DNA of 49,852 bases from a virus (lineage: Duplodnaviria; Heunggongvirae; Uroviricota; Caudoviricetes). The first letter of the stretch is position 1; every line of letters starts with the position of its first letter. This document shows positions 26,709 through 33,841 of this stretch, in pieces. The notes under the pieces were generated by a model that was not told the DNA's origin, searched no databases, and worked only from the letters and a program-made list of their open reading frames with translations. The stretch is taken from IMG/VR virus record IMGVR_UViG_2913167280_000010, positions 1-49,852 of that record. One strand, 5' to 3'. The position numbers and the translations under genes are program-made.

Positions 26709-28037
26709 TTACAACGCCGCGTAATTACCGTGCGCGATGATCAACCCATAGGTGTAACAATCGAAAAGGTCATCAGCACGTTTATGCGCATCTTTGTCTG
26801 CCAGGTGGAACCCGGCGATTTGTTTTATGAGGTGGTTTGCGGTGGTGCGTTTGAATGAAACGGTCTTGTCGTAAGCCTCCCGGACGATTTTGCACATCCC
26901 CTGATAGTGGTAGCTGGATGCCATCACCGCCCGTTCGTCTTTGCCCTTGCTGGTTAGTGCCGATTTAATCGGCGTCATATCCCAGCCTTCGGTTTCCGCC
27001 TTCTGGTTGAGAATTGCCCCCATCGCGGCGTCTTCCATAAAAATTCCCTGGCTGCCCAGACGCGGACGGCATAATTTCGCGAGGCGCTCGAGGTTGTCAT
27101 AAACGCCGGGGATATATTCAGGAAGCAATGACGCTTTAATTTGCGTCACATCCCAGTCAATAATCGTCAGTTTTGGCTCGTCCGAATACGTTGACTCATA
27201 AGCGAAATACACCACGCCAGTACCATCATTTTCGGTCCCGCCTTTCAGCGCCGTATCCATCACTGCGAAAATCATGTCGCAGTGCGGCGGCATCTCAATC
27301 GGCTGACCGTCCACCAGCAGCTTATCGACATCGAGTAACGCATCTTTGGACCAGTCCACGAACTCGGCAAGATATTCCTGCTGCCAGACACGCGGATCGG
27401 ATTTCTTCTCCGTTTCCTCCAGTTCTTCTTTCGGAATATACGGATTCGATGAAGTTGGCGCATGGTGCATGACAAATCCCAGGGATTCATCGTGGCATAT
27501 CGCGTAGAAAAAATTGCTCTCGTCGATACCGTTTGGTGTGGAAAATACCCACGCACAGCCGCGGTAATCGACAAGCGTCGGGCGTATCGCTCGGGGCCAG
27601 ATTTCCTCGAGCATTTCCGGCGATTTAGTGAATGCGGCCTCATCAATCAGCACAGCGTGATATTTACGCCCACGCCCGGCCAGTTTGTTATTGTCCGTTA
27701 CCCAAAAGTCGATGCGCCCCCCATTACGGAGAATGATGCGCTTTTCATTTTTTGACTGACTGAGGATCAGCGGTTGCAGAACGGCGCTAATTTCATCCCA
27801 GATTTCCTGGTACTGGCGGTATTGCGCGGTAAAAATCCCCACCCTACCCGCGATAAGTTGCCCGGTGGTAGGAACGGCAAATTTCCGCGTAGCGAAACTG
27901 GTAGCGATGTTCACCAGCATCACCGTTTTACCCCAGCGACGACCACAGCATACCGCGTGGAAGCGTTCCTCTATTGCCGCCGTCCATGCAGCTATTTGCC
28001 CCTCATGAGGTTTTGGGAGGTAGATTTCAATCGACAT
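26709..28037 (-). CDS. Terminase large subunit
   Basis: 442 aa; Walker A-like CCGRRWGKT near the N-terminus; overlaps the terS stop. Confidence 0.8.
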   Translation of the reverse strand: MSIEIYLPKPHEGQIAAWTAAIEERFHAVCCGRRWGKTVMLVNIATSFATRKFAVPTTGQLIAGRVGIFTAQYRQYQEIWDEISAVLQPLILSQSKNEKRIILRNGGRIDFWVTDNNKLAGRGRKYHAVLIDEAAFTKSPEMLEEIWPRAIRPTLVDYRGCAWVFSTPNGIDESNFFYAICHDESLGFVMHHAPTSSNPYIPKEELEETEKKSDPRVWQQEYLAEFVDWSKDALLDVDKLLVDGQPIEMPPHCDMIFAVMDTALKGGTENDGTGVVYFAYESTYSDEPKLTIIDWDVTQIKASLLPEYIPGVYDNLERLAKLCRPRLGSQGIFMEDAAMGAILNQKAETEGWDMTPIKSALTSKGKDERAVMASSYHYQGMCKIVREAYDKTVSFKRTTANHLIKQIAGFHLADKDAHKRADDLFDCYTYGLIIAHGNYAAL

Positions 28038-29118
28038 TATCCACTCCCGGCATCGGCAGAGAGTTGTGGATAATTATTTCGTTATTCTCACCACCCACGC
28101 CTTTTTTGAGGTTTTCAATCTCAGTGCGCAGCTTTTCGTTGCGAAGCCTCAGTCCTTCAAGCTCCAGATCATTGCGACTGTCAGTTGCACCACCAGCAGA
28201 ACTTCCTTTCGTCGCCATTATCAGCTTGATAAGTTCGCGCCGGGCGGCAGCCTTATCCTCCAGCAGGATCTCAACACCAAATTTCCCGAGCTTTGCCCCT
28301 GCATATAATTGTCGCGCATCCCCATCAAGCAGAGTGGTATCAGCCATATAAAGCTGTCCCGTTCCCTCACCGCAGCACTTCGGACAATCCGGATTGGGTA
28401 TGGCGTTATCAACAAAGCCAAGGCCTCCATATTCCGGCTCGGATTTGCCATCTCTGGAGGCCTGTGCCGCTGCCTTATCGAATTCTGCAATATCACGCCA
28501 CTGGTAGAGGTGATTCTCGCCCCAGCAATAACGGCAGTTAACACGGCGAAATTGTGCCAACTGATTGGGGTCGGCCTGGACAATGGCCATCAACTGACTC
28601 ACCAGTAAATCCAGGTCTGCGGTATAGCGTTTCTGGTACTGATTGCGGAACCATGAGATAGCCCGATAAACCTTAACATTTCTTAACAGACGTGAGGCTG
28701 CGGCACTTGCTACGTTTCCCGTTCCCTCGTAACCCGCTAGGCGGTATGCCTCGATGAGGTTTTTACCCTGCGCAACCAGCATGGCGAATTTTGCCTGCTG
28801 GTCAGAAATGCCGAATTCATCGGGACAGAATGAAATTTCCTCCACGTCGCCCTCATTCAGGCACGCATCGGATACTGACTTTTTTTTCTGAGATTTTCCG
28901 TTCCGCTTTTGCGCAGTCTGCGCAAATTTTTTCTGCGCACTTTTTTGCGCAGTTTTGCGCACTTCTGTCTGCGCATTTTTCGGAGGTTTTTTGATGTAAC
29001 GACGGGCTGTTGCGTAATTCAATCCCCTTGCTTCACACCATGCCACCGGAGATATACCGGAGCGGGTGTATTCAGCAATATACTCCTGCTGCAACGCCCC
29101 CCAGTCCGGTCTGCTCAT
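28027..29118 (-). CDS. Terminase small subunit (HTH plus terS core plus zinc ribbon)
   Basis: 363 aa; terS-type motif QQAKFAMLVAQGKNLIEAYRLAGYEG...ASRLL; CxxC...CxxC pairs; contains a TGCGCA array. Confidence 0.65.
   Translation of the reverse strand: MSRPDWGALQQEYIAEYTRSGISPVAWCEARGLNYATARRYIKKPPKNAQTEVRKTAQKSAQKKFAQTAQKRNGKSQKKKSVSDACLNEGDVEEISFCPDEFGISDQQAKFAMLVAQGKNLIEAYRLAGYEGTGNVASAAASRLLRNVKVYRAISWFRNQYQKRYTADLDLLVSQLMAIVQADPNQLAQFRRVNCRYCWGENHLYQWRDIAEFDKAAAQASRDGKSEPEYGGLGFVDNAIPNPDCPKCCGEGTGQLYMADTTLLDGDARQLYAGAKLGKFGVEILLEDKAAARRELIKLIMATKGSSAGGATDSRNDLELEGLRLRNEKLRTEIENLKKGVGGENNEIIIHNSLPMPGVDNVD
28910..28975. repeat. Array of six palindromic TGCGCA hexamers at 10-15 bp spacing inside terS (candidate pac or terS-binding site)
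   Basis: TGCGCA at about 28910, 28919, 28934, 28946, 28956 and 28970, each flanked by T-runs. Confidence 0.5.
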
Positions 29119-29121
29119 CAG

Positions 29122-29331
29122 TTAGTCCTGATTTTTATCCACCCTGAGTAGTTCGCGCAGGGCAAAGGCATCCCCTTTTCTGGCAAGCTTAAACAATGCC
29201 GCCCGTATCTCGGCTTCACCTTTCGCTCTGCCCTTACGGATGGACGTGTAAAAATTTGTCATTGCTTCCCGATTTTCTTTCAGTCGGTTCAGATCAACAT
29301 CCAGAACGTCAGCGATTTGTTGTGCAGTCAT
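29122..29331 (-). CDS. Small HTH-like protein (about 69 aa; start alternatively at 29373)
   Basis: ORF between the GT-A-like gene and terS; MTAQQIADVLDV... helix-turn-helix-like N-terminus. Confidence 0.4.
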   Translation of the reverse strand: MTAQQIADVLDVDLNRLKENREAMTNFYTSIRKGRAKGEAEIRAALFKLARKGDAFALRELLRVDKNQD

Positions 29332-30241
29332 CCGGCACGCTGCCAGAGACTCGACTTTCGAATACGGAATCATTTGTCACCCCCATTGATATGCAGGGTG
29401 TCTTCTTCCTGTATTTTTCGTGAAGGATTTTTACTGCAGCGTTGTTCCAGGTGACCTGATGGTGAATGCGTTTATGGCTGGCGCCCATCAGTGAGATTTT
29501 TACGCACGACGGCGCATGCATGACGGAGTAAAAACTTTTAACATAGGTTCCGGAATCCAGATACAGCTCGGTCATTCCGCCGCTGTTTTTCTGCGTCTGT
29601 TTCTGCCCTAACTGGACAGCACCGATCGTCATAAACAATTCACCACAGCGACCGAGATTCGTGTACGTATTCACATCCTCGTTAATGCGCCCCATGAATG
29701 AGAACGGTCGATCAACGGAACAGATAAAACTGTTCATTGCCTTGCGTTTCACCCACGAAGCATGGCCGCCATTGTCACCAAGAAAATCCCCGCCCTGCGA
29801 CATAGCGATGGAAAGCGCAGGTATTGATTCGTAATACGCCAGCATCTCAGAAAGGATCGCATCCAGTTTCCTTATCGGGAAATAGGCCTGGTCATAGTTG
29901 CGATCCACCCGAAACTGGAACTCGTGATAATCATCATCGAGCTGAATGAAGTATTTACACCCGACCAGTTTTACCAGGTCGAAACAGGCATTACGGGCGT
30001 AAAAAATTGAGCGGCGATCACCGAAATTATCGGCTTCGTCAAAACGACTGGCTATATCGGCTTTGGAAAACACCAGCACCTGTTCACCAAATTCAGCTAT
30101 GTACTGATGCCGTGTCTTATCTTCATCATCAACAACGATAAAAACTTTCCCGGTATAGCCAGCACGACGCAACGTCCGGTAAGTCAGAACTTTGTCCGGG
30201 CGCCCGTGAGTCAGAATAAAGGCGCAAAAATCATCACGCAT
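29309..30241 (-). CDS. GT-A-fold-like (DxD) putative glycosyl/nucleotidyl transferase, 310 aa
   Basis: Start ATG overlaps the ParB-like stop (ATGCGTGA) with GGAGG RBS; motifs CAFILTHGRP, KVFIVVDDED, FIQLDDDYHEF. Confidence 0.5.
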   Translation of the reverse strand: MRDDFCAFILTHGRPDKVLTYRTLRRAGYTGKVFIVVDDEDKTRHQYIAEFGEQVLVFSKADIASRFDEADNFGDRRSIFYARNACFDLVKLVGCKYFIQLDDDYHEFQFRVDRNYDQAYFPIRKLDAILSEMLAYYESIPALSIAMSQGGDFLGDNGGHASWVKRKAMNSFICSVDRPFSFMGRINEDVNTYTNLGRCGELFMTIGAVQLGQKQTQKNSGGMTELYLDSGTYVKSFYSVMHAPSCVKISLMGASHKRIHHQVTWNNAAVKILHEKYRKKTPCISMGVTNDSVFESRVSGSVPDDCTTNR

Positions 30242-31025
30242 ATTCCTCCTCCTCCCCGCCATGCATGATCTCCACCATGCGCTGCGTCATCCGGACAAAT
30301 CCATTTTCAATAGCCTGCTGATAATCAATGATCACCAGCGCCGACTCCTCAAAAAGGCTCTGAATTTCAGCGGGGGCGTGAGCGTAATAGTCCGCAATTC
30401 TGCTAAAATTAAACACCGTGTGACGTTCTGCCGCGCACAGGAGGAATTTTTCGATATCAGGCTCAAGGGACGCCGAACGTATCCGGCTGACCAGCTCCTG
30501 AGTTTTCGTATCGTCGTACAGTTCACTGATATCCGGTTTACCGCCCGACGGCTTATAAACAGGCGTATCAATTTTCGTCGTATACGGCTCCTCCTCATTT
30601 CCTGTACCGGGCAAAACATCCGTCAACAACTCATCAATTTCTGTCGGGCTGAAGCCTGTCAGGGAGACATCAAAATCAGCATTGATTAGGTCCGACAGCT
30701 CCATCCGTAACAGATCTTCATCCCAGCCAGCATTCATCGGCAGGCGATTATCTGCCAGGCGGTACGCCTTTTTCTGCTCATCCGTCAGGCCAGACAGAAC
30801 AATGACCGGAACAGAATCCATTTTGAGCATTTCAGCCGCCATAACACGACCGTGACCCGCAATAATTTCGCCCTTTTCGTCAATCAGCACCGGATTAGTC
30901 CAGCCGAATTGCTTTATGCTTTCTACCAGTTGTGCCACCTGTTCAGGGCTGTGTGTCCTGGCGTTGTGTGCATACGGAGACAGTTCTTGTAAAGGGCGAT
31001 AGACGATCTTCAATTTCTCGCTCAT
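30234..31025 (-). CDS. ParB-like nuclease domain protein (ParB/Srx fold), 263 aa
   Basis: N-terminal ParB-N-like region (VYRPLQELSPYAHNARTH...AGHGRVMAA); acidic C-terminus; upstream of terminase. Confidence 0.75.
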   Translation of the reverse strand: MSEKLKIVYRPLQELSPYAHNARTHSPEQVAQLVESIKQFGWTNPVLIDEKGEIIAGHGRVMAAEMLKMDSVPVIVLSGLTDEQKKAYRLADNRLPMNAGWDEDLLRMELSDLINADFDVSLTGFSPTEIDELLTDVLPGTGNEEEPYTTKIDTPVYKPSGGKPDISELYDDTKTQELVSRIRSASLEPDIEKFLLCAAERHTVFNFSRIADYYAHAPAEIQSLFEESALVIIDYQQAIENGFVRMTQRMVEIMHGGEEEEYA

Positions 31026-33687: not shown

Positions 33688-33762
<75 letters not shown>

Positions 33763-33765
33763 ATA

Positions 33766-33841
<76 letters not shown>

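What the first reader, a model, noticed from the sequence alone, without database searches (positions are those of the whole stretch)
28910..28975. Array of six palindromic TGCGCA hexamers inside terS: candidate pac or terminase recognition site
Within about 65 bp of the terS coding region the self-complementary hexamer TGCGCA occurs six times, with spacings of about 10 to 15 bp (roughly one helical turn) and T-runs between copies. Headful phages of the P22 and SPP1 types place pac inside terS. The repeats force an AQK/AQT-rich protein segment, suggesting the DNA signal constrains the protein.
Basis: seen in the sequence. Interest (0 to 1): 0.4.

Follow-up and report, generated by a model that had tools for sequence, protein, structure and literature searches.

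The report
Candidate packaging signal inside terS
Six copies of TGCGCA inside the small-terminase gene of a Rac-type E. coli prophage are a conserved DNA signal, most likely the site this protein's own N-terminal DNA-binding domain grips to start genome packaging, as in phage P1.

Summary
TGCGCA occurs six times in window 28910-28975, which chance does not explain (scan P about 1e-7). It lies in the minus-strand terS gene (28027-29118), in the segment after an N-terminal helix-turn-helix (HTH) domain.

It is a DNA-level signal, not a by-product of the protein:
- Copies sit in all three reading frames across homologues.
- Synonymous-codon randomisation gives 0.3-0.9 copies where 3-6 are observed, in 34 species-level homologues.
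- Third-codon positions inside hexamers are 97% conserved, against 71-76% nearby.

The motif tracks the HTH, not the terminase backbone. Recognition helix A-R-R-Y/H goes with TGCGCA (39 distinct sequences). A-K-R-Y goes with TGCGAA (4). More divergent HTHs have their own repeats.

The HTH is homologous to the N-terminus of the phage P1/D6 PacA family. P1's proven pac site is 4+3 TGATCA hexamers at the equivalent place in pacA.

Best reading (about 0.65): the array is the multivalent docking site for TerS HTH domains that starts headful packaging. It works like P1 pac, but has no GATC/Dam sites, no IHF consensus and only one cluster.

No virion ends or binding data exist. I class it as a new variant of a known kind, of moderate interest.

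The parts
28910..28975 (.). Array of six TGCGCA hexamers (starts 28910, 28919, 28934, 28946, 28956, 28970). Proposed multivalent TerS-HTH docking site, the recognition part of pac.
   Evidence: positions and statistics. DNA-level constraint; conservation in homologues.
28027..29118 (-). terS, small terminase subunit, 363 aa.
   Evidence: Pfam Terminase_2 and PHROG 51. PGAP annotation 'terminase small subunit' in matching E. coli genomes, including the 99%-identical one.
28984..29118 (-). N-terminal HTH domain of TerS (aa 1-45). Recognition helix is around Y35-K44 (YATARRYIKK). Homologous to the N-terminus of the P1/D6 PacA family.
   Evidence: reciprocal PHROG 1711/51 hits. D6 PacA 34% identity over aa 1-74, E 3e-8; alignment, and transposase-type HTH hits; pLDDT 75-81, three helices.
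28819..28983 (-). Lys/Ala/Gln-rich linker (about aa 46-100). Its coding DNA carries the array. Variable in length among homologues.
   Evidence: indels in the alignment; pLDDT below 50 for aa 49-94, from a shallow-alignment model.
28186..28800 (-). Terminase_2 core of TerS (aa 107-311), with a four-cysteine insertion (C195, C198, C245, C248).
28769..28774 (.). Isolated seventh TGCGCA at gene nt 345. It is at the distance where Klebsiella/Enterobacter-type genes have a second cluster of 2-3 copies. It is not conserved within the Rac type.
26709..28037 (-). terL, large terminase subunit, 442 aa. The presumed nuclease/motor recruited by TerS.

Best explanation
**Claim.** The six TGCGCA hexamers are the sequence-specific docking sites for the N-terminal HTH domains of the TerS protein encoded by the same gene. 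Together they form the recognition element of this Rac-type phage's packaging (pac) site.

**Proposed mechanism** (inferred unless marked otherwise):
1. TerS oligomerises through its Terminase_2 core. It then presents several PacA-like HTH domains on long, Lys-rich flexible linkers.
2. Each HTH reads one hexamer. Because the motif is a 6-bp palindrome, orientation does not matter. Many weak contacts add up to high avidity for a cluster that is essentially unique in phage and host DNA.
3. The bound TerS recruits TerL through its C-terminal tail. TerL cuts nearby and headful packaging starts.

**Why the site sits there.** It lies in the DNA that encodes the tolerant linker, about 15-90 bp downstream of the HTH codons. 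Reader and site are therefore inherited together as a compact specificity cassette.

**Shown here:**
- the array is real;
- it is under DNA-level purifying selection;
- it is linked to, and co-varies with, the HTH;
- the HTH is homologous to the PacA family.

**Inferred, not shown:** binding, oligomer geometry, cleavage position, headful mode.
For: 1. **Not chance.** Scan P is about 1e-7, and the six clustered copies account for the excess over the ~20 TGCGCA expected in the window.

2. **DNA-level selection.**
   - In 34 of 35 homologues from different species, nt 120-240 hold 3-6 copies. Synonymous recoding gives 0.3-0.9 (P <= 0.002 each). The rest of the gene shows no excess.
   - 112 of 119 linker Ala-Gln dipeptides are encoded T-GCG-CA, against 48 of 134 elsewhere (Fisher 4e-24).
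   - The 160 copies fall in frames 117/32/11.
   - Gln-to-His changes keep the hexamer intact.
   - In 20 species, third-codon positions inside hexamers are 97% conserved. The figure is 76% in the HTH and 71% in the non-hexamer linker.

3. **Conservation at low protein identity.** Klebsiella phages at 38% TerS identity carry six copies at the same place, in three frames.

4. **The motif follows the HTH, not the backbone.**
   - TGCGCA also follows the same HTH in GER2 and Aeromonas phage phiARM81mr (PHROG 370 cores).
   - TGCGAA follows the A-K-R-Y variant in Yersinia phages (PHROG 51), RothC (PHROG 370) and PSTCR3 (PHROG 32222).
   - 39 distinct A-R-R-Y/H sequences average 4.9 TGCGCA and 0.0 TGCGAA (a single stray copy, in L096). 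Four A-K-R-Y sequences average 0 and 6.2.
   - More divergent HTHs carry their own repeats: GTGGAAAC, GGGGCAAAA, GCGAACC, ATCGCGAA, and GATCAT in 933W.

5. **Homology to a proven system.**
   - The TerS N-terminus hits the P1 PacA family: PHROG 1711 at E 1e-4. P1 PacA itself scores 4e-202 against that family.
   - D6 PacA hits PHROG 51 at E 8e-5.
   - Direct BLASTP against D6 PacA gives 34% identity, E 3e-8.
   - P1's experimentally defined pac is 4+3 TGATCA/G hexamers at pacA nt 194-233 and 324-352, flanking the annotated cuts (PMC10028697).

6. **Motif-only scan.** In viral contigs, 59 of 81 TGCGCA arrays, and 44 of 48 with five or more copies, lie within 450 nt of such an HTH.

7. **The N-terminal domain is an HTH.** It resembles transposase-type HTHs. 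It is a confident three-helix unit followed by a low-confidence linker.
Against: - There is no experimental datum for this phage family: no mapped virion ends, no binding assay (literature).
- Similarity to P1 PacA itself is weak (E 0.08). The link rests on D6 PacA and on profile hits.
- TerL is unrelated to PacB at sequence level.
- No IHF consensus lies within several hundred bp.
- The hexamers lack GATC, so the P1 regulatory logic cannot apply.
- The window type has one cluster, not two.
- D6 PacA has the HTH but no detectable array in its linker.
- The homologues are phylogenetically related, so the counts overstate the number of independent events. The four A-K-R-Y cases may stem from one ancestral change.
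- The structural model is poor overall (mean pLDDT 47).
Confidence: 0.65

Rival explanations
1. **TerS autoregulatory operator.** The array binds the TerS HTH but serves to control terS/terL expression, or to titrate TerS. It is not the packaging initiation site, which lies elsewhere.
For: All the HTH-motif co-variation evidence shows only a reader-site relationship, not packaging. The site is inside the transcribed late operon.
Against: In the homologous P1 system, the equivalent hexamers are the pac site (PMC10028697). No promoter-like site is nearby. Six to eight sites is more than an operator usually needs.
Confidence: 0.07
2. **RNA or single-strand structure.** The palindromic copies pair with one another in the mRNA (translation or stability control). 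Alternatively, on the + strand they form hairpin + T-run terminators that block antisense transcription.
For: The 111-nt RNA folds at -36.5 kcal/mol, z = -5.4. Three terminator-like hairpin + T-run sites lie on the + strand within the array.
Against: - The exact hexamer is conserved rather than co-varying.
- Homologous arrays made of non-palindromic direct repeats do not fold better than shuffles (z = -0.7 to -2.0).
- The proven P1 pac DNA site gives the same kind of z-score (-4.5), so the folding is a by-product of repeated palindromes.
- No + strand genes nearby need a terminator.
Confidence: 0.08
3. **Protein-level repeat or duplication remnant.** Selection acts on an Ala-Gln-Lys-rich peptide, or the array is a recent tandem duplication. 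The DNA identity is then incidental.
For: Tandem Repeats Finder detects weak periodicity of 12, 24 and 36 bp. Five of the six copies encode x-A-Q.
Against: - Copies occur in three frames and encode AQ, (V/L/M)R(T/K) or CA(E).
- Synonymous randomisation predicts fewer than one copy.
- Silent positions inside hexamers are 97% conserved across genera.
- Gln-to-His changes preserve the hexamer.
Confidence: 0.05
4. **Site for another DNA-binding protein.** Candidates are the neighbouring ParB/Srx-like protein (30234-31025), the 83-aa HTH-like ORF (29122-29373), or a host factor.
For: A ParB-family protein and a small PHROG 309 protein are encoded just upstream. ParB proteins bind clustered palindromic sites (established knowledge).
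Against: The array occurs with the TerS HTH in phages that have different upstream genes: Klebsiella, Yersinia, Aeromonas, GER2 and PHB10. The motif changes with the TerS recognition helix.
Confidence: 0.08

Closest known systems
Phage P1 pac site (HEX4/HEX3 TGATCA/G hexamers inside pacA, recognised by the PacA/PacB pacase)
   Same: - Clustered copies of a palindromic hexamer, with irregular 7-15 bp spacing.
- Located inside the small-subunit gene, shortly after the codons of an N-terminal HTH that is homologous to the one here, via the D6 PacA/PHROG 1711 family.
- The array overlaps a poorly conserved, charged segment of the protein.
   Different: - The hexamer is TGCGCA, not TGATCA. It has no GATC, so Dam-methylation control is impossible.
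- One cluster of six plus a lone copy, instead of 4+3 flanking the cut.
- No IHF consensus.
- The TerS core is Terminase_2 with a Cys4 insertion, not PacA-like.
- TerL is unrelated to PacB.
- Cleavage has not been mapped.
SPP1/SF6 pac (pacL-pacC-pacR) with a G1P small terminase
   Same: The TerS core belongs to the same Pfam family (Terminase_2). There are multiple TerS contact points at the start of, or inside, the terS gene. A-tracts lie between the contacts (PMC9611059; established knowledge).
   Different: The SPP1 boxes are longer and not a repeated hexamer. G1P has no additional PacA-like N-terminal HTH. Specific binding in that system is disputed (PMC9611059).
P22 pac (single 22-bp asymmetric sequence inside gene 3)
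   Same: A packaging signal embedded in the terS coding sequence of a lambdoid, headful phage (PMC9611059).
   Different: P22 has a single asymmetric site with no repeats. P22 gp3 is an unrelated TerS fold family. No HTH-motif co-variation is known there.
Lambda cosB (R1-R3 sites for the gpNu1 winged HTH, plus IHF site I1)
   Same: Several short repeats are read by the N-terminal HTH of the small subunit, adjacent to the terminase genes (established knowledge; PMC4669245 for the lambda-like cos layout).
   Different: cosB lies upstream of Nu1, not inside it. It has three sites and an IHF bend, and gives cohesive-end cutting at cosN. The HTH family is different.

Membership tests
P1-type pac site | Lies inside the gene for the small (recognition) terminase subunit | tested here: met
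   The array is at terS nt 144-209. The P1 hexamers are at pacA nt 194-352.
P1-type pac site | Multiple copies of one hexanucleotide | tested here: met
   Six exact TGCGCA copies. Homologues carry 3-8.
P1-type pac site | Two hexamer clusters (4 + 3) flanking the cleavage point | tested here: not met
   The window has one cluster plus a lone copy 135 bp away. Klebsiella/Enterobacter-type homologues do have a second cluster of 2-3 copies at nt 348-398.
P1-type pac site | Each hexamer contains GATC, so cleavage is regulated by Dam methylation | tested here: not met
   TGCGCA has no GATC and no Dcm site (sequence). The related 933W TerS linker does carry GATCAT x4.
P1-type pac site | IHF binding site next to the cut | tested here: not met
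   No WATCARNNNNTTR match with one mismatch or fewer between 28351 and 29944.
P1-type pac site | Recognition subunit homologous to PacA | tested here: inconclusive
   Only the N-terminal ~75 aa are homologous: PHROG 1711 at E 1e-4; D6 PacA at E 3e-8; P1 PacA itself at E 0.08. The rest of the protein is Terminase_2.
P1-type pac site | Site-specific double-strand cleavage by the terminase at the site, followed by headful packaging | not testable with these tools
   Needs virion-end mapping. No published data were found.
Terminase_2 (SPP1 G1P-like) small terminase | Pfam PF03592 match above the gathering score | tested here: met
   37.9 bits against a cut-off of 26.1, over aa 107-311. There is also a weak hit to the solved Pam5 small terminase, E 0.019.
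P22-type pac | A single asymmetric ~22-bp site, with a gp3-family TerS | tested here: not met
   The element is a repeated palindromic hexamer. The TerS is Terminase_2/PHROG 51, not P22 gp3-like.
Lambda-type cosB | R sites upstream of the small-subunit gene plus an IHF site, with cohesive ends | tested here: not met
   The site is intragenic and no IHF consensus is present. The type of end was not testable.

The most novel reading that the evidence does not exclude
A portable 'reader plus site' packaging-specificity cassette exists. It is about 200 bp that encodes a PacA-like HTH, followed at once by an array of its own cognate 6-8 bp motif. The cassette has been shuffled among at least four small-terminase families (PHROG 51, 370, 32222, 1711) in Enterobacterales and Aeromonas phages. 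P1 pac is one special case.

Specificity follows a simple recognition code: Arg39 to Lys in the recognition helix goes with TGCGCA to TGCGAA. If true, pac specificity could be predicted from sequence and reprogrammed.
Probability: 0.45. Interest if true: 0.65.

Novelty: new variant of a known kind. Interest (0 to 1): 0.5.

Why it matters
How pac-type small terminases pick out viral DNA is still unclear. For P22, Sf6, SPP1 and others, specific binding has been hard to show in vitro (review PMC9611059). This family offers a legible case:
- a short exact motif in many copies;
- a small separate HTH domain;
- natural specificity variants that differ by one residue and one base.

That makes direct tests straightforward: EMSA, recoding, specificity swaps.

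The prophage type is common. It is present in 893 of 5,426 complete E. coli genomes. Knowing its pac signal therefore matters for three things:
- predicting generalised or lateral transduction start points;
- building packaging-competent phagemids;
- annotating pac sites in silico in Klebsiella, Enterobacter, Yersinia, Aeromonas and Stx-phage relatives.

Tried and rejected
- **IHF site near the array**, as in P1: none with one mismatch or fewer between 28351 and 29944.
- **RNA structure as the selected feature**: rejected. Non-palindromic homologous arrays do not fold (z = -0.7 to -2.0), and P1 pac gives a similar z-score.
- **Antisense terminators**: the pattern matches on the + strand are a by-product of palindrome + Lys-codon A-runs. 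There are no + strand genes to terminate.
- **TerL homology to P1 PacB**: none. No solved TerL relative was found.
- **Literature**: searches for TGCGCA + terminase, for pac sites of Rac/933W-type phages, and for the phages related by TerL found nothing relevant.
- **Structure prediction**: only near-identical homologues were available. The model is poor (mean pLDDT 47) and I used it only for the per-region confidence pattern. No fold search was run on it.
- **Stand-alone arrays** (for example in satellites). In the motif-only scan of viral contigs, the 22 arrays without a nearby HTH fell into three groups:
  - twelve are only 3-copy matches, most of which I did not inspect;
  - among the ten I inspected, several are simple tandem repeats in unrelated genes or non-coding DNA;
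  - the rest are one iteron-like array in a replication-type gene, one non-coding array, one GC-rich repeat at a contig end, and one truncated terS.
- **D6 PacA**: it has the HTH but no array in its linker. Three AATGATC copies lie further downstream.
- **Motif-agnostic test** (best 6-mer cluster against synonymous recoding). It is significant for most variants. It is only marginal for GER2 (0.07), 933W (0.09), L072 (0.48, three 11-mers) and P1 itself (0.05). This shows the test is conservative.

Full report
**1. The observation**

TGCGCA starts at window positions 28910, 28919, 28934, 28946, 28956 and 28970.
- Spacings are 9, 15, 12, 10 and 14 bp.
- The rest of the 49.9-kb window holds 22 copies, close to the 20 expected from shuffles.
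- Six or more copies in 66 bp has a Poisson probability of 2e-12 per position, about 1e-7 for the window.
- No other hexamer, apart from homopolymer runs (at most 4 copies), clusters like this in the window.

**2. Context**

The array is inside the minus-strand ORF 28027-29118 (363 aa). This ORF matches Pfam Terminase_2 (aa 107-311) and PHROG 51 'terminase small subunit' at E 6e-67.
- terL follows at 26709-28037.
- Upstream on the same strand lie an 83-aa ORF (PHROG 309), a TAGT-family glycosyltransferase, and a ParB/Srx-like protein.
- The window is an intact Rac-family lambdoid prophage carrying recET, kilR, ydaSTUV and ynaK.
- The 501-bp region around the array is present in 893 of 5,426 complete E. 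coli genomes.

On the coding strand the array reads AAT GCG CAG ACA GAA GTG CGC AAA ACT GCG CAA AAA AGT GCG CAG AAA AAA TTT GCG CAG ACT GCG CAA. Five copies are NNT-GCG-CAR (x-Ala-Gln). One is GTG-CGC-AAA, in another frame. The array corresponds to aa 48-70, just after an N-terminal domain (aa 1-45).

**3. A DNA signal, not a protein repeat**

*Conservation at low identity.* Klebsiella phages whose TerS is only 38% identical carry six TGCGCA at the same place. There the copies are read in all three frames: ACT GCG CAA, CTG CGC ACT, AAG TGC GCA.

*Species-level set.* I collected one homologue per species from a genome collection, covering Escherichia, Shigella, Serratia, Buttiauxella, Pantoea, Yokenella, Enterobacter, Citrobacter, Providencia, Leclercia, Raoultella, Lelliottia and others.
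- Every terS with this N-terminal domain has 3-6 copies at nt ~138-209.
- Keeping each protein fixed and redrawing codons from the genes' own usage gives 0.3-0.9 copies. That yields P <= 0.002 in 34 of 35 genes.
- The remainder of the gene shows no excess.

*Codon choice.*
- 112 of 119 Ala-Gln dipeptides in the linker are encoded T-GCG-CA, against 48 of 134 elsewhere (Fisher 4e-24).
- The 160 hexamers are split 117/32/11 among the three frames.
- Several Gln-to-His substitutions keep the hexamer intact.

*Silent sites.* In 20 collinear genes from different species, third-codon positions inside hexamers are 97% conserved. The figure is 76% in the well-conserved HTH and 71% in the linker between hexamers.

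*Caveat.* These sequences are related by descent, so the P values overstate independence.

**4. The motif follows the N-terminal HTH**

TerS homologues that lack this N-terminal domain have no array. Homologues with a divergent N-terminal HTH have a different short repeat at the same place:

| Loci | Repeat |
|---|---|
| L091/L093 | GTGGAAAC x3 plus an inverted copy |
| L092/L094 | GGGGCAAAA x3-4 plus an inverted copy |
| L117/L118 | GCGAACC, 2 + 2 inverted |
| L072 | AAAAATCGCGAA x3 |
| Yersinia phages and L081 | TGCGAAT x5-6 |

The same N-terminal domain also sits on otherwise unrelated TerS backbones, and the motif goes with it:

| Phage | TerS backbone | Repeat |
|---|---|---|
| GER2 | PHROG 370 | TGCGCA x5 |
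| phiARM81mr (Aeromonas) | PHROG 370 | TGCGCA x7 |
| RothC | PHROG 370 | TGCGAA x6 |
| PSTCR3 | PHROG 32222 | TGCGAA x8 |
| 933W | PHROG 370 | (C/T)GATCAT x4 |

Across all loci held, I counted 46 distinct N-terminal sequences.
- The 39 with helix A-R-R-Y/H average 4.9 TGCGCA and 0.0 TGCGAA (a single stray copy, in L096).
- The four with A-K-R-Y average zero TGCGCA and 6.2 TGCGAA.

So one Arg-to-Lys change in the presumed recognition helix accompanies a C-to-A change at hexamer position 5. This could stem from a single ancestral event that later spread onto three backbones.

A motif-only scan of viral contigs for three closely spaced TGCGCA found 81 arrays. Of these, 59 lie within 450 nt of such an HTH. 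Among arrays with five or more copies, the figure is 44 of 48. Of the 22 arrays without a nearby HTH, I inspected ten: they are simple tandem repeats, an iteron-like array, other repeat arrays, or a truncated terS. The other twelve are mostly 3-copy matches that I did not examine.

**5. What the N-terminal domain is**

A profile of 16 diverse N-termini aligns cleanly, P1 PacA included.
- The profile hits the N-terminal HTH of the IS21-family transposase structures 8q4d and 8b4h (E 0.007).
- Individual members hit Pfam HTH_23, HTH_29, HTH_Tnp_1 and HTH_50.
- An AlphaFold2 model built on a shallow alignment is poor overall (mean pLDDT 47). It still gives aa 1-45 as three helices at pLDDT 75-81, aa 49-94 below 50, and aa 100-160 at 70-88.
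- This fits a folded HTH, a flexible linker, and then the Terminase_2 core. The linker also varies in length among homologues.

**6. Link to phage P1**

*Protein homology.*
- The window TerS hits PHROG 1711 at E 1e-4 (aa 6-81). P1 PacA scores 4e-202 against that family.
- D6 PacA reciprocally hits PHROG 51 at E 8e-5.
- D6 PacA aligns directly with the window TerS at 34% identity over aa 1-74, E 3e-8.
- P1 PacA itself aligns only weakly (E 0.08, the 'LNxxTARRY' segment).

*Site layout.*
- In P1, the annotated pac cuts lie at pacA nt ~276-285.
- TGATCA sits at nt 194, 201, 213 and 228, and TGATC(A/G) at 324, 336 and 347, after an HTH that ends near nt 126.
- These hexamers are the experimentally defined pac elements. 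Synonymous recoding of them reduces P1 packaging (PMC10028697, citing Sternberg & Coulby 1987 and Skorupski et al. 1994).
- The layout here is parallel: the HTH ends at nt 132 and the hexamers span nt 144-209.
- Klebsiella/Enterobacter-type genes also have a second cluster of 2-3 copies at nt 348-398, in excess over synonymous expectation. That resembles P1's bipartite design.
- The window has only one copy there (28769), and it is not conserved among Rac-type genes.

**7. Differences from P1**

- There is no GATC in the hexamer, so no Dam control is possible.
- No IHF consensus lies nearby.
- The TerS core is Terminase_2 with a four-cysteine insertion.
- TerL is unrelated to PacB. Its relatives are PdC23, Chronis, RothC/D and Yersinia phages, and I found no end-mapping data for any of them.

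I therefore do not file the element as a member of the P1 pac type. It works like one.

**8. Rivals**

- *RNA structure.* The RNA of the array folds well (z = -5.4). P1 pac does too (-4.5). Homologous non-palindromic arrays do not (-0.7 to -2.0). Pairing is therefore a by-product of repeated palindromes.
- *Antisense terminators.* Hairpin + T-run patterns on the + strand have the same origin.
- *Protein repeat or duplication remnant.* Tandem Repeats Finder sees weak 12/24/36-bp periodicity. The frame, codon and silent-site data in section 3 argue against this reading.
- *Another binding protein.* ParB or the 83-aa ORF is unlikely, because arrays occur in phages with different upstream genes.
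- *Autoregulatory operator.* This cannot be excluded with these tools.

**9. Verdict**

The most likely function is multivalent recognition of phage DNA by the TerS N-terminal HTH domains to start packaging (confidence about 0.65). Binding, the cut position and the headful mode remain to be shown.

The element is a new variant of a known kind. The broader pattern, an HTH plus cognate-array cassette shared by four TerS families, is the more interesting lead. It gives a tractable system for the unresolved question of how pac-type small terminases read DNA (PMC9611059).

Noticed in passing
window 29309-31025 (- strand): A TET-associated-glycosyltransferase-family protein (Pfam TAGT E 4e-34; PGAP 'GREB1-related') and a ParB/Srx N-terminal-domain protein (ynaK-like, 263 aa) sit directly upstream of terS. 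No TET or methyltransferase gene was seen in the part of the window that I examined. This may be a DNA-modification or other late function. The ParB gene is disrupted in the 99%-identical E. coli genome.
   Followed up: partly
window 29122-29373 (- strand): An 83-aa ORF between the glycosyltransferase and terS matches part of PHROG 309 'terminase small subunit' (E 1e-21, profile positions 145-218 of 319). It is annotated as a 69-aa hypothetical protein in relatives. It could be an accessory packaging or DNA-binding protein.
   Followed up: no
window 28375-28536 (TerS aa 195-248): The Terminase_2 core carries an insertion with four invariant cysteines (CRYCWG ... CPKCCGEG) across homologues at 35-95% identity. 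This is a putative zinc ribbon inside a small terminase.
   Followed up: no
window ~28234 (TerS aa ~295): There is a mosaic joint inside terS. Upstream of it, the window is 92% identical to the vB_EcoS-666R9 type. Downstream, the TerS C-terminal tail and terL are replaced. The tail type (…IIIHNSLPMPG versus …ININVVDA) goes with the TerL type in other phages, which fits a tail that docks TerL.
   Followed up: partly
L003, L101, L106, L110 and others, terS nt 348-398: Klebsiella/Enterobacter-type terS genes have a second cluster of 2-3 TGCGCA about 150 bp downstream of the first, in two frames. It is in excess over synonymous expectation (P 0.001-0.02). The bipartite layout is reminiscent of P1 HEX4/HEX3.
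   Followed up: partly
L136 1341-1390 (phage 933W terS nt 141-190): The Stx phage 933W TerS has the same N-terminal HTH family, followed by four (C/T)GATCAT repeats at a 12-bp period that encode IDHEIDHKTDHEIDHD. Each contains a Dam GATC site, as in P1 pac. It is only marginally significant in the motif-agnostic test (P 0.09).
   Followed up: partly
L002, L081, L137, L140 versus all TGCGCA-type loci: There is a single-residue/single-base co-variation. Recognition helix A-R-R-Y/H goes with TGCGCA, and A-K-R-Y goes with TGCGAA (often as the TGCGAATTCGCA palindrome), with almost no overlap (one stray TGCGAA in an A-R-R-H locus, L096).
   Followed up: yes
PP818812.1 (hits H12, H163): A record named Actinobacillus phage vB_Apl-pPE4 carries a terL 99% identical to this E. 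coli Rac-type prophage, and terS DNA 92.6% identical. The host assignment or purity of that record looks doubtful.
   Followed up: no
L167 ~10434-10540: An unrelated viral contig has about seven T(T)GCGC(A) repeats inside a replication-type HTH protein gene. It looks like an iteron or origin array rather than a pac site.
   Followed up: no
window 33688-33841 (- strand): tRNA-Gly(TCC) and tRNA-Thr(TGT) genes lie in the late-regulatory region of the prophage.
   Followed up: no
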